This document shows, piece after piece, positions 54,801-57,118 of a DNA stretch of 64,000 nt. The position numbers were made by a program. Location of the stretch: NCBI RefSeq assembly GCF_050320075.1, contig NZ_CP190018.1, one strand, 5' to 3'. Source of the DNA: Escherichia coli. GTDB taxonomy: Bacteria; Pseudomonadota; Gammaproteobacteria; Enterobacterales; Enterobacteriaceae. Positions within the stretch are counted from its first letter, which is position 1. Every line of letters starts with the position of its first letter.

Positions 54801-57118
54801 GCAGGTTGTCGCAGTAAAAACATTTGCTGATGTTGATGAAGCGCAGGCATTGCGTCTGGCGGCGGCGCTGGAGCAAGGTTCCAGCCACCCGCTGGCACGG
54901 GCGATCCTCGATAAAGCAGGTGATATGCAGCTACCGCAGGTCAACGGTTTCCGCACATTGCGCGGGCTGGGTGTGAGCGGTGAAGCTGAAGGTCATGCGG
55001 TATTGCTGGGCAATCAGGCGCTGTTAAATGACCAGCAAGTTGATACTAAAGCGATTGAGGCAGATATTTCAGCTCAGGCATCACAAGGGGCAACGCCTGT
55101 GCTGCTGGCGGTTGACGGGAAAGCGGTAGCCCTGCTGGCTGTACGCGATCCATTGCGTAGTGATAGCGTGGCGGCGCTGCAACGCCTGCATAAAGCGGGA
55201 TATCGTCTGGTGATGCTAACCGGGGATAACCCAACCACCGCCAATGCGATCGCCAAAGAAGCAGGGATTGATGAGGTGATAGCCGGGGTGCTACCGGACG
55301 GTAAAGCCGAAGCGATCAAACGTCTGCAAAGTGAAGGACGTCAGGTGGCAATGGTGGGCGACGGCATTAACGACGCGCCAGCGCTGGCTCAGGCGGATGT
55401 CGGTATTGCGATGGGTGGCGGCAGTGATGTTGCCATTGAAACCGCGGCGATTACCCTGATGCGCCATAGCCTGATGGGTGTTGCGGATGCGCTCGCGATT
55501 TCCCGCGCAACGCTGCGCAATATGAAGCAGAACCTGCTCGGCGCGTTTATCTACAACAGTATCGGTATTCCGGTCGCCGCCGGTATTTTGTGGCCGTTCA
55601 CTGGAACACTGCTTAACCCGGTGGTCGCCGGAGCGGCAATGGCGCTCTCGTCGATTACCGTAGTGAGTAACGCCAACCGGTTGCTGCGGTTTAAACCGAA
55701 GGAATGATTGGTATTTACTTAATGCGTTTGTGAGATCCAGTTCTTGTTGCGCTCCTTTTATGAGTAATGCCATATAAAGTGACTGGCGCAGGGAGCGCGC
55801 AGGGGGCGGCCAATCGCCGCCGCCCCCTGCACCCCCGGGCTCTGGCGAACAAAATCTCCGCTGCGCGGTACCCTCAGCTTATCCCTTGCGGCTACCGGGT
55901 CGGGCGCGAGGTAACATCCCTGTAAAACGCGCCCTCAGCCCACATCCATGTGGGCTGCCCCGGCCTTCAGGGAACGCCTCGGCGATTTTGACGCCACCAA
56001 CACCGGTGCAGTCTTTCGTTTCAAAGCAAAAACAATTTTTCGATCATATTTAAGCTACCACTGAACAAGCCTCATAACTCCATTTGCGCCATCCCTCCCC
56101 GCGCGCTAGCATGATATTTCACAAAGGGAGGTCGTATGGATCTGTTGTACCGGGTAAAAACGCTTTGGGCCGCGCTGCGCGGTAATCATTACACCTGGCC
56201 TGCTATCGATATCTCTCTTCCCGGCAATCGCCATTTTCATCTGATTGGCAGTATTCATATGGGCAGCCACGATATGGCTCCCCTGCCCACCCGTTTGCTC
56301 AAAAAGCTCAAAAACGCCGATGCGCTGATCGTCGAGGCGGATGTTTCCACCAGCGATACGCCTTTTGCTAATTTGCCTGCCTGCGAGGCGCTGGAAGAGC
56401 GCATTAGCGAGGAGCAACTCCAAAACCTGCAGCACATTAGCCAGGAGATGGGCATTTCTACCTCACTCTTTTCTACCCAACCGCTGTGGCAAATCGCGAT
56501 GGTTCTTCAGGCGACGCAGGCACAAAAACTGGGGCTGCGGGCAGAATACGGTATCGATTACCAGCTATTGCAGGCGGCGAAGCAACAACATAAACCCGTG
56601 ATTGAACTGGAAGGGGCTGAAAACCAGATTGCCATGTTGCTCCAGCTCCCTGACAACGGACTGGCACTGCTGGACGATACGCTGACCCACTGGCACACCA
56701 ATGCACGGTTGCTGCAACAAATGATGAGCTGGTGGCTGAATGCGCCGCCGCAAAATAATGAAATAACGCTGCCTAATACGTTCAGTCAATCGCTGTACGA
56801 TGTGCTGATGCATCAGCGAAATCTCGCCTGGCGGGACAAATTATGCGCCATGCCGCCGGGGCGCTATGTGGTCGCAGTCGGTGCACTACACCTGTATGGA
56901 GAAGGGAATTTGTCGCAGATGTTGCGCTAAAAAAATGGCCAATATCGCTATTGGCCCGTCAAAGAGGAATTTCATTTTTTTATTATTATGCCGTCACTTT
57001 AAGCGACGGTGTAACTCGATTGTCGCTCAATCTCACCATCCTGCCAATACTCTTAGGCAAGATGACTCTTTTTTTTGGACCGCCATCAGGCGTATGCTTG
57101 CTTCGTTTTTTTGTTTAA

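What the first reader, a model, noticed from the sequence alone, without database searches (positions are those of the whole stretch)
55708..56135. copA-ybaP intergenic region is GC-rich, full of perfect palindromes and has no ORF
I recall a small HTH gene (ybaQ, about 113 aa) between ybaP and copA in K-12, but no ORF of 60 aa or more exists here on either strand; my translation of the minus strand gives only peptides of 20 aa or fewer. Instead there are GC-rich hairpins: CAGGGGGCGGC-caatc-GCCGCCGCCCCCTG (about 55800-55829) and CAGCCCACAT-cc-ATGTGGGCTG (about 55937-55958). This could be a deleted or replaced ybaQ, or a structured RNA or repeat element.
Basis: inference. Interest (0 to 1): 0.35.

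Follow-up and report, generated by a model that had tools for sequence, protein, structure and literature searches.

The report
Known TRIP1e repeat replacing ybaQ
The odd gene-free, hairpin-rich stretch between copA and ybaP is a copy of TRIP1e, an already described E. coli repeat of unknown function, which in about 6% of strains occupies the place where K-12 has the small antitoxin-like gene ybaQ.

Summary
The 428-bp copA-ybaP spacer has no ybaQ, no ORF of 60 aa or more inside it, and two perfect hairpins.

It is not new. Window 55746-56011 is TRIP1e, a 265-bp GC-rich repeat reported 38 bp after the copA stop and 124 bp before the ybaP start (Li et al. 2024, PMC10888264). It is 97% identical to K-12 TRIP1a.

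- **Allele frequency:** 346 of 5,426 complete E. coli genomes carry this allele, and 4,834 carry ybaQ.
- **How the alleles differ:** The whole intergenic cassette is swapped. Other strains have higB+ybaQ, ybaQ plus REPs, or a 171-bp deletion. There is no target-site duplication and no ybaQ remnant.

Three points appear to be unreported.

- **Wider distribution:** TRIP1 occurs in Kluyvera and Pseudocitrobacter.
- **Compensatory changes:** Its helices carry compensatory base changes.
- **Resemblance to a known RNA motif:** Its minus-strand core has the architecture of the Rfam TwoAYGGAY motif. The two hairpin loops, ACAGGGAUGU and ACAUGGAUGU, fit the CsrA-binding consensus. A Kluyvera homolog passes the Rfam threshold at 54 bits; this copy scores 32.8, below the threshold of 43.

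Function and the expressed strand remain untested.

The parts
53203..55707 (+). copA coding sequence (context). Its stop codon is TGA here and TAA in the other alleles.
   Evidence: ORF list; annotation of the identical strain YZLc1-3; alignment to K-12.
55708..55745 (.). Allele-specific AT-rich left flank (34% GC). It has no counterpart in the ybaQ alleles.
   Evidence: Alignments of the alleles; composition.
55746..56011 (+). TRIP1e repeat, 266 bp and 64% GC. The + orientation is defined as that of TRIP1a downstream of aqpZ.
   Evidence: 97% identity to K-12 TRIP1a. Position matches the published TRIP1e: 38 bp after copA, 124 bp before ybaP, 265 bp. Five-type alignment.
55749..55798 (.). Stem-loop 1. 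The 9-bp stem pairs GCGCUCCUU with AGGGAGCGC around a variable AT-rich loop.
   Evidence: Fold. Pairs conserved in 23 copies: helix 1, helix 13.
55799..55830 (.). Perfect 12-bp GC hairpin (GCAGGGGGCGGC / GCCGCCCCCUGC, 8-nt loop).
   Evidence: Inverted repeat I3; nearly invariant in 23 copies from at least 5 species.
55837..56002 (-). Multi-branched core with the TwoAYGGAY architecture: a long closing stem plus two adjacent hairpins with GGA loops.
   Evidence: Rfam RF01731 at 32.8 bits, below the gathering score of 43. Long-range arms 55850-65 / 55975-90. Compensatory pairs in the closing stem. A Kluyvera homolog scores 54.2 bits.
55902..55934 (-). Hairpin 2. It has an outer 7-bp stem and an inner ACA/UGU stem with loop GGGA. 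The minus strand reads UUACAGGGAUGU (reverse complement of 55914-55925).
   Evidence: Sequence; pattern match; helices 9 and 10 with a compensatory G-C to A-U change.
55936..55957 (-). Hairpin 1, a perfect 10-bp stem. The minus strand reads CCACAUGGAUGU at its top.
   Evidence: Inverted repeat I7; pattern match; three pairs with compensatory changes in TRIP1d and a Klebsiella MAG copy (helix 8).
56012..56033 (.). Short extension still homologous among TRIP1 copies. It corresponds to the start of the longer right-hand part of the composite repeat seen in Kluyvera and Pseudocitrobacter.
   Evidence: Flank comparison.
56034..56073 (.). Allele-specific right flank.
   Evidence: Allele alignments.
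56074..56135 (+). ybaP upstream region shared by all four alleles.
   Evidence: Allele alignments.
56136..56930 (+). ybaP (TraB/GumN family) coding sequence (context).
   Evidence: ORF list; annotation.

Best explanation
Shown (identity, confidence above 0.95): the spacer holds TRIP1e. This is one copy of the TRIP1 family of GC-rich, about 265-bp interspersed repeats of E. coli. In this lineage it occupies the variable cassette between copA and ybaP. Other strains there carry the higB-ybaQ toxin-antitoxin pair, or orphan ybaQ plus 1-3 REPs, or a plain deletion. The exchange is a whole-cassette replacement between conserved flanks, not a clean insertion.

Inferred (about 0.6): the element is non-coding and is kept for its fold at the RNA level. 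Helices in copies from Escherichia, Kluyvera, Pseudocitrobacter and a Klebsiella MAG keep pairing through compensatory changes.

Inferred (about 0.25-0.3): the constrained strand is the window's minus strand. Its core has the TwoAYGGAY architecture: a long closing stem holding two adjacent hairpins whose loops present an invariant GGA. Both loops lie in near-consensus CsrA sites (UUACAGGGAUGU and CCACAUGGAUGU against RUACARGGAUGU) and are 28 nt apart. A transcript of this strand would therefore bind one CsrA dimer, acting as a small decoy or as a local cis/antisense CsrA site.

Published: as a dispersed repeat, TRIP1 also serves as a substrate for chromosomal rearrangement.
For: - **Identity:** 97% identity to TRIP1a over 231 nt. 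Coordinates match the published TRIP1e exactly. 346 of 5,426 genomes share the allele.
- **Cassette swap:** four alleles aligned; no ybaQ or higB remnant.
- **Structure:** z = -4.2 and -4.9.
- **Covariation on 23 copies, minus strand:** 99.0% of cells paired, 11 pairs changed on both sides (0 of 500 shuffles reach this; slid controls give 1-3), score 0.092.
- **Covariation, plus strand:** 7 pairs changed on both sides, score 0.067. Alifold energy is -104.9 for the minus strand and -89.8 for the plus strand.
- **Minus-only helices:** one pair has three types, AU 8, GC 8 and GU 7. On the plus strand the GU cases would be A-C mismatches.
- **GGA loops:** GGA is invariant in both loops of all 23 copies, while the neighbouring loop bases vary.
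- **Pattern count:** ACANGGATGT occurs 3 times in 64 kb (0.45 expected), and 2 of those are these loops.
- **CsrA consensus:** from PMC4347634.
- **TwoAYGGAY:** 32.8 bits here; 54.2 bits for the Kluyvera genomosp. 3 homolog, above the gathering score of 43. TwoAYGGAY has been proposed to bind CsrA (PMC4333381).
Against: - **No expression evidence:** no sigma-70-like promoter and no intrinsic terminator on either strand, and no expression data were available.
- **Position favours the other strand:** in the TRIP1(+) orientation, 13-15 of about 17 independent loci lie 39-72 nt after the stop codon of a co-directional gene (38 nt after copA here). Read-through would therefore make the UCC strand, not the GGA strand.
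- **Rfam support is uneven:** the window copy and all E. coli copies fall below the gathering score at 27-33 bits, and a K. cryocrescens copy gives no hit at all.
- **Second loop deviates:** it reads AGGGAU, not AYGGAY.
- **Strand test is weak:** pairs shared by both strand models show no clear G-U versus A-C bias, 6 against 2 cells.
- **Few independent events:** the compensatory changes number only a handful (E. coli versus Kluyvera clade, TRIP1d, a Klebsiella MAG). In palindromic DNA they could also arise by templated repair.
- **Core is dispensable:** TRIP1b-type copies lack the whole core yet persist.
Confidence: 0.5

Rival explanations
1. The plus strand is the working strand. TRIP1e is transcribed as the 3' untranslated tail of copA. 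Its very stable stem-loops act like the REP/BIME cluster that occupies the same place in K-12: they block 3'-to-5' exonucleases, pause or end transcription, and insulate ybaP. The UCC loops would be incidental, or would pair with GGA-containing sequences.
For: - **Position and orientation rule:** 13-15 of about 17 independent loci have a co-directional gene ending 39-72 nt upstream, 38 nt here.
- **Flipped copy follows the rule:** where the TRIP1c spacer is inverted (E. whittamii, E. coli E69), the element again sits 57 nt after a co-directional gene, dusC.
- **No terminator in between:** none lies between copA and TRIP1e.
- **Same slot as REPs:** K-12 has three REPs in this position.
- **Plus-strand fold:** z = -4.2, with some plus-only wobble variation (UA 15 / UG 5).
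Against: - **Weaker covariation and energy:** plus-strand measures are all lower than minus-strand ones.
- **Unexplained GGA/UCC conservation:** a generic stabiliser role does not explain an invariant triplet in two loops across genera.
- **Terminators upstream of some copies:** at least TRIP1a lies behind a canonical terminator, which limits read-through (Rudd, as quoted).
- **Exceptions:** TRIP1d and three Kluyvera copies are in the opposite orientation.
Confidence: 0.25
2. TRIP1e is selfish or relic DNA with no cellular function. It would be a decayed fragment of a larger mobile or recombining repeat. Its hairpins would be DNA-level features, either recognition structures for a transposase or recombinase or palindromes kept symmetric by templated repair. 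It reached this site by homologous exchange of the intergenic cassette.
For: - **Variable copy number:** 0-5 per E. coli genome and at least 6-9 in Kluyvera, often at contig ends.
- **Truncated form in E. coli:** in Kluyvera and Pseudocitrobacter, TRIP1 is only the left part of a 600-750-nt composite repeat with tandem 36-nt units. E. coli keeps a truncated version.
- **Recurrent core loss:** internal 125-nt deletions remove the core at two loci.
- **Rearrangements:** documented in the literature and seen here in locus L045.
- **Dispensable locus:** the TRIP1e locus is polymorphic with several other cassettes, including a plain deletion.
Against: - **No mobile-element hallmarks:** no terminal inverted repeats, no target-site duplication and no empty site. 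Alleles differ by cassette replacement.
- **No recent transposition:** each type sits at a fixed locus in E. coli.
- **Three-type pairs through G-U:** these point to RNA-level rather than DNA-level constraint.
- **Cross-genus conservation:** loop triplets and helices are kept across genera at 85-91% identity.
Confidence: 0.2
3. The spacer holds a degraded ybaQ/higB pseudogene or a small unannotated protein gene.
For: ORFs of 45-55 aa exist inside the spacer.
Against: - **No similarity to YbaQ or HigB:** best tblastn E-values are 0.3-0.4 on the spacer alone, and there is no DNA match to the K-12 cassette.
- **ORF not conserved:** the 52-aa ORF's ATG is missing in TRIP1a and TRIP1c.
- **Substitution pattern:** it follows helices, not codons.
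Confidence: 0.02

Closest known systems
TRIP1 repeats of E. coli (TRIP1a-c, Rudd 1999; TRIP1d and TRIP1e, Li et al. 2024, PMC10888264)
   Same: It is this element. It has the same sequence (97% to TRIP1a), length, GC content and predicted fold, and the same locus as TRIP1e: 38 bp after copA and 124 bp before ybaP.
   Different: Nothing differs in the element itself. The paper does not mention several things seen here: that the TRIP1e allele lacks ybaQ/higB and the REPs, the homologs outside E. coli, the compensatory changes, the position and orientation rule, or the TwoAYGGAY/CsrA resemblance.
TwoAYGGAY RNA motif (Rfam RF01731; Weinberg et al. 2010)
   Same: On the minus strand it has a large closing stem and two adjacent hairpins with A-N-GGA-U loops joined by 'AG'. 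Like TRIP1, the motif is multi-copy in its host genomes (Psychromonas ingrahamii). A Kluyvera TRIP1 homolog passes the Rfam threshold at 54.2 bits.
   Different: This copy scores 32.8 bits, below the threshold of 43. Its second loop is AGGGAU, and that hairpin has an internal loop. TRIP1 carries two extra 3' hairpins (in minus-strand order) that are not in the model. Sequence composition is very different: 64% GC against the AT-rich seed members.
CsrA-sequestering RNAs (CsrB, CsrC, McaS)
   Same: GGA is presented in hairpin loops within near-consensus CsrA sites. Two sites lie at a spacing that suits one CsrA dimer.
   Different: There are only two sites per element, against about 18-22 in CsrB. 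No own promoter or terminator was found, no expression or binding data exist, and there is no sequence homology (no Rfam CsrB or CsrC hit).
REP/BIME elements
   Same: They are GC-rich extragenic palindromes just downstream of genes, and they occupy the same slot after copA in K-12.
   Different: There is no sequence similarity. TRIP1 is much longer and multi-branched, with a few copies per genome rather than hundreds.
MITE-like enterobacterial repeats (ERIC/IRU, boxC, RSA)
   Same: They are intergenic, structured, low-copy and polymorphic between strains. A boxC-like cassette is the alternative allele at the TRIP1d locus.
   Different: No terminal inverted repeats or target-site duplications were found. 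No similarity to these families was noticed in the alignments, but it was not searched for systematically.

Membership tests
TRIP1 repeat family | Sequence match to TRIP1a/b/c covering more than 80% of the repeat (criterion of Li et al. 2024) | tested here: met
   97.0% identity to K-12 TRIP1a over window 55782-56012.
TRIP1 repeat family | Length 146-273 bp and 62-65% G+C | tested here: met
   266 bp and 64.3% GC; ranges from the paper.
TRIP1 repeat family | Very stable predicted secondary structure | tested here: met
   -124.6 kcal/mol (+) and -137.9 kcal/mol (-), z = -4.2 and -4.9.
TRIP1e type | Locus: 38 bp downstream of the copA stop and 124 bp upstream of the ybaP start | tested here: met
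   copA ends at 55707, the repeat starts at 55746 and ends at 56011, and ybaP starts at 56136. The reference record CP057178.1 itself could not be fetched.
TwoAYGGAY (Rfam RF01731) | Score at or above the curated gathering score (43 bits) | tested here: not met
   32.8 bits on the minus strand, 55837-56002, and no hit in the gathering-mode scan of the window. Other E. coli copies score 27-33.1 bits. The homolog L094:9515-9676 scores 54.2 bits. The K. cryocrescens copy gives no hit.
TwoAYGGAY (Rfam RF01731) | Two terminal loops carrying AYGGAY | tested here: inconclusive
   Loop 1 is AUGGAU and fits. Loop 2 is AGGGAU, with a purine where Y is required. In Kluyvera both loops are mostly AGGGAU; in K. 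genomosp. 3 both are AUGGAU.
TwoAYGGAY (Rfam RF01731) | Large P1 stem closing the two hairpins | tested here: met
   Arms 55850-65 / 55975-90. Helices 1-2 include a compensatory A-U to G-C pair (12 against 11 sequences). The feature is described in the supplement of PMC2864571.
CsrA-binding RNAs | GGA in hairpin loops within RUACARGGAUGU-like sites | tested here: met
   The minus strand reads UUACAGGGAUGU (11 of 12) and CCACAUGGAUGU (9 of 12), both at hairpin tips. The consensus is from PMC4347634.
CsrA-binding RNAs | The GGA strand is expressed and bound by CsrA | not testable with these tools
   No expression or binding data are available. No promoter or terminator was predicted.
REP/BIME | REP consensus palindromes | tested here: not met
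   The K-12 spacer holds three REPs. None aligns to the window spacer.
MITE / transposon-derived repeat | Terminal inverted repeats, target-site duplication, and empty sites in other strains | tested here: not met
   The alleles at copA-ybaP and alx-sstT differ by whole-cassette replacement. The 171-bp allele is a deletion of the toxin-antitoxin cassette, not an empty TRIP1 site.
Intrinsic terminator | GC hairpin followed by a U run | tested here: not met
   The only terminator-like site in 55500-56300 lies inside copA. None follows the TRIP1e hairpins.
ybaQ / HigA antitoxin gene or pseudogene | Detectable protein or DNA similarity to ybaQ or higB | tested here: not met
   tblastn and blastn find nothing beyond chance.

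The most novel reading that the evidence does not exclude
TRIP1 elements are the enterobacterial branch of the TwoAYGGAY class. On this reading they are dispersed, strain-variable modules whose GGA-loop strand is transcribed and binds CsrA. The number of copies (0-5 in E. coli, more in Kluyvera) and their placement just downstream of genes would then tune free CsrA, or bring CsrA to the 3' ends of neighbouring transcripts such as copA. Repeat-masked read mapping would explain why they have been missed in CLIP and RNA-seq studies.
Probability: 0.2. Interest if true: 0.55.

Novelty: already known. Interest (0 to 1): 0.25.

Why it matters
For the scan, this closes the finding. The missing ybaQ is a real strain polymorphism, and the sequence in its place is a published repeat, not a new gene or element.

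Beyond that, the repeat has had no function for 25 years. The link made here suggests a direct experiment: strand-specific expression and CsrA binding. That link rests on compensatory changes, invariant GGA loops, a TwoAYGGAY-type core and homologs in Kluyvera.

The locus also shows how intergenic cassettes are swapped between conserved genes in E. coli: a toxin-antitoxin pair, REPs, TRIP1 or nothing.

Tried and rejected
- **Collection scan too loose:** The species list is therefore incomplete. Absence from Salmonella, Citrobacter and others cannot be claimed, and the state of the locus in outgroup species could not be examined.
- **Unproductive literature search:** a search for Rudd's repeat names returned noise.
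- **Reference record unavailable:** the TRIP1e reference CP057178.1 is not in the collection.
- **Strand test on shared pairs:** counting G-U against A-C on pairs common to both strand models gave 6 against 2 cells, which is inconclusive.
- **Promoter and terminator scan:** nothing was found for the element on either strand. By eye, only weak -10-like strings such as TATAAA at 55773-78 appear, with no usable -35.
- **Rfam on the long K. cryocrescens composite copy:** no hit, so the TwoAYGGAY link rests on some copies only.
- **MITE reading:** no TIR, TSD or empty site.
- **ybaQ remnant or small protein:** rejected.
- **Foreign import block:** divergence from K-12 in copA and ybaP is an even 2-3%, with no rise next to the cassette.
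- **Other copies in the window:** none.
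Full report
**1. The observation**

The window is E. coli. The spacer is 100% identical to strain YZLc1-3. copA ends at 55707 and ybaP starts at 56136, leaving 428 bp between them.

One has 12-nt arms at 55799-55810 and 55819-55830. The other has 10-nt arms at 55936-45 and 55948-57.

No ORF of 60 aa or more lies inside the spacer; the longest are 55, 52 and 45 aa. The core folds far better than shuffled sequence on both strands, with z = -4.2 and -4.9. Only the core is GC-rich (64%). The spacer overall is 55.6% GC, like the window.

**2. Comparison with K-12**

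K-12 has a 794-bp spacer holding ybaQ (113 aa, on the opposite strand) and three REP palindromes. The window matches K-12 up to the second base of the copA stop codon, which is TGA here and TAA in K-12. It matches again from about 62 nt before the ybaP ATG. Everything in between is unrelated, and no trace of ybaQ or higB remains.

**3. The four alleles in complete E. coli genomes**

ybaQ is present in 4,834 of 5,426 complete genomes. The window's arrangement is present in 346. A sample of spacer lengths and three fetched examples show four kinds of allele:
- an intact higB (RelE/ParE toxin) plus ybaQ (HigA antitoxin) pair, 869 bp;
- orphan ybaQ plus one to three REPs, 592, 693 or 794 bp, which includes K-12;
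- a 171-bp clean deletion of the toxin-antitoxin genes;
- the 428-bp allele of this window.

The 171-bp allele derives from the ybaQ-type cassette and is not an empty site for the window's insert. Divergence from K-12 in the flanking genes is an even 2-3%.

**4. Identity of the insert**

Window 55782-56012 is 97% identical to a sequence between aqpZ and lysO that nearly all E. coli carry. A literature search identified this as the TRIP1 repeat. Rudd described TRIP1a-c in 1999, and Li et al. described TRIP1d and TRIP1e in 2024 (PMC10888264).

That paper describes TRIP1e as 265 bp long, 94% identical to TRIP1a, located 38 bp downstream of the copA stop and 124 bp upstream of the ybaP start, and present in 232 of 6,725 genomes. 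The window's element (55746-56011) fits to the base. The finding is therefore an already described element.

The paper gives no function. It does not mention ybaQ, CsrA, Rfam or Kluyvera.

**5. Relatives outside E. coli**

One scan of species-representative genomes with an invariant 18-mer was noisy and truncated. It still recovered homologs at 85-91% identity:
- Kluyvera cryocrescens, nine loci;
- K. intermedia and Kluyvera genomospecies 1 and 3;
- Pseudocitrobacter faecalis;
- a Klebsiella MAG;
- E. whittamii and an unnamed Escherichia species.

In Kluyvera and Pseudocitrobacter, TRIP1 is the left part of a 600-750-nt composite repeat. The right part has further hairpins with A(U/G)GGAU loops on the other strand, a GC hairpin and 36-nt tandem units. 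The E. coli copies keep only about 25 nt of that right part, up to window 56033.

**6. Structure and strand**

I aligned 23 copies on each strand (A3 for plus, A4 for minus). The helices are kept by compensatory changes. Examples are A-U/G-C (12 against 11 sequences) in the closing stem and C-G/G-C (12 against 11) in an inner stem. Hairpin 55936-57 has three double changes, and its neighbour has a G-C to A-U change.

| Measure | Minus strand | Plus strand |
|---|---|---|
| Pairs changed on both sides | 11 | 7 |
| Covariation score | 0.092 | 0.067 |
| Alifold energy (kcal/mol) | -104.9 | -89.8 |

The minus strand also has helices with AU, GC and GU types at one pair, which would be mismatches on the plus strand. 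Pairs common to both models do not discriminate. The independent events are few, so the strand call is a lean, not a result.

**7. What the minus strand looks like**

Rfam gives one sub-threshold match on the minus strand: TwoAYGGAY (RF01731), 32.8 bits against a gathering score of 43, at 55837-56002. The other E. coli TRIP1 copies score 27-33 bits.

The Kluyvera genomospecies 3 homolog scores 54.2 bits over the full model, with a second partial match in the right part of the composite. A K. cryocrescens copy gives no match.

TwoAYGGAY is defined by two terminal loops with AYGGAY and a large closing stem. It is multi-copy in Psychromonas, and no E. coli sequence appears in the stored part of the original alignment. 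It has been proposed to bind CsrA (PMC4333381).

In all 23 TRIP1 copies the GGA of both loops is invariant, while the adjacent loop bases vary. The window's loops read UUACAGGGAUGU and CCACAUGGAUGU. The SELEX consensus for CsrA is RUACARGGAUGU, with GGA in a hairpin loop. ACANGGATGT occurs three times in the 64-kb window against 0.45 expected, and two of those are these loops, 28 nt apart.

**8. Evidence pointing the other way**

In the TRIP1(+) orientation, 13-15 of about 17 independent loci sit 39-72 nt after the stop codon of a co-directional gene. That includes copA here (38 nt), aqpZ, putP and yohP. Where the TRIP1c spacer is inverted in E. whittamii and E. coli E69, the element again follows a co-directional gene, dusC, by 57 nt. 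Read-through would therefore produce the UCC-loop strand.

No promoter or terminator was predicted on either strand. TRIP1b-type copies lack the whole core, and the same 125-nt deletion recurs at the alx-sstT locus. No terminal inverted repeats, target duplications or empty sites were found. At both polymorphic loci examined, alleles differ by whole-cassette replacement.

**9. Verdict**

- **Identity is settled:** this is TRIP1e, already published.
- **Mechanism is open:** I favour an RNA-level, structure-constrained element whose minus-strand core is a TwoAYGGAY-type pair of CsrA sites (about 0.25-0.3 for the CsrA step). The rivals are a plus-strand 3'-tail stabiliser analogous to the REPs it replaces (0.25) and functionless relic or selfish DNA (0.2).
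- **Deciding between them:** strand-specific expression mapping and a CsrA binding assay would settle it.

Noticed in passing
window 56929-57012 (-): The sRNA ChiX (Rfam sroB, 82.1 bits) lies at the 3' end of ybaP and overlaps its stop by 2 nt, as in K-12.
   Followed up: yes
window 55705-55707; loci L002, L010, L133: The allele breakpoint falls inside the copA stop codon, which is TGA in the TRIP1e allele and TAA in the three other alleles.
   Followed up: partly
L010 1169-1848 (E. coli RM14723) versus L002 4219-4560 (K-12): Many strains carry an intact higB-like RelE/ParE toxin gene next to ybaQ, so K-12 ybaQ looks like an orphan HigA antitoxin. Spacer lengths of 592, 693 and 794 bp suggest one to three REPs after copA in ybaQ strains. 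A 171-bp allele has lost the whole pair.
   Followed up: partly
L104 1186-1588 and L090 8046-8447 versus L008 1570-1942: In E. whittamii and E. coli E69 the whole yohP-dusC spacer, TRIP1c plus its diverged flanks, is inverted in place relative to K-12.
   Followed up: partly
L132 2047-2444 (K-12) versus L009 1554-2168 and L048 about 950-1490: At alx-sstT, K-12 has a boxC-like CCCTCTCCC/GGGAGAGGG repeat cassette where other strains have TRIP1d, and the last alx codons differ too. Strain SCPM-O-B-8794 has a TRIP1b-like copy at this locus, with the 125-nt core deleted between short CCGGGG repeats.
   Followed up: partly
L046 2135-2700; L075, L076, L082, L094, L118 (right of each TRIP1 copy): Kluyvera and Pseudocitrobacter TRIP1 copies continue into a conserved 330-450-nt right arm. 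It has plus-strand hairpins such as GUCCGCCAUGGAUGGCGGAC and GUCCCAGGGAUGGGAC, a GC hairpin, and 1 to at least 3 tandem units of about 36 nt (GTTTTCAGCTAAAAGCCAACGCCAATATCGCTGCAA).
   Followed up: partly
L045 1-2790: A MAG contig labelled 'Proteobacteria bacterium' is E. coli-like. It joins copA to dusC through one TRIP1 copy. This is either a TRIP1e/TRIP1c recombinant of the kind reported by Li et al. or an assembly chimera.
   Followed up: no
window 21835-21912 (+), 62689-62766 (-), 12705-12793 (-): There are two naRNA4 (REP-derived, CssrE) matches and one AgrB antisense RNA match above the Rfam gathering scores elsewhere in the window.
   Followed up: no
window 7454-7463 (+): A third ACATGGATGT site lies in the window outside TRIP1e. 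Whether it sits in a hairpin or in a gene was not checked.
   Followed up: no
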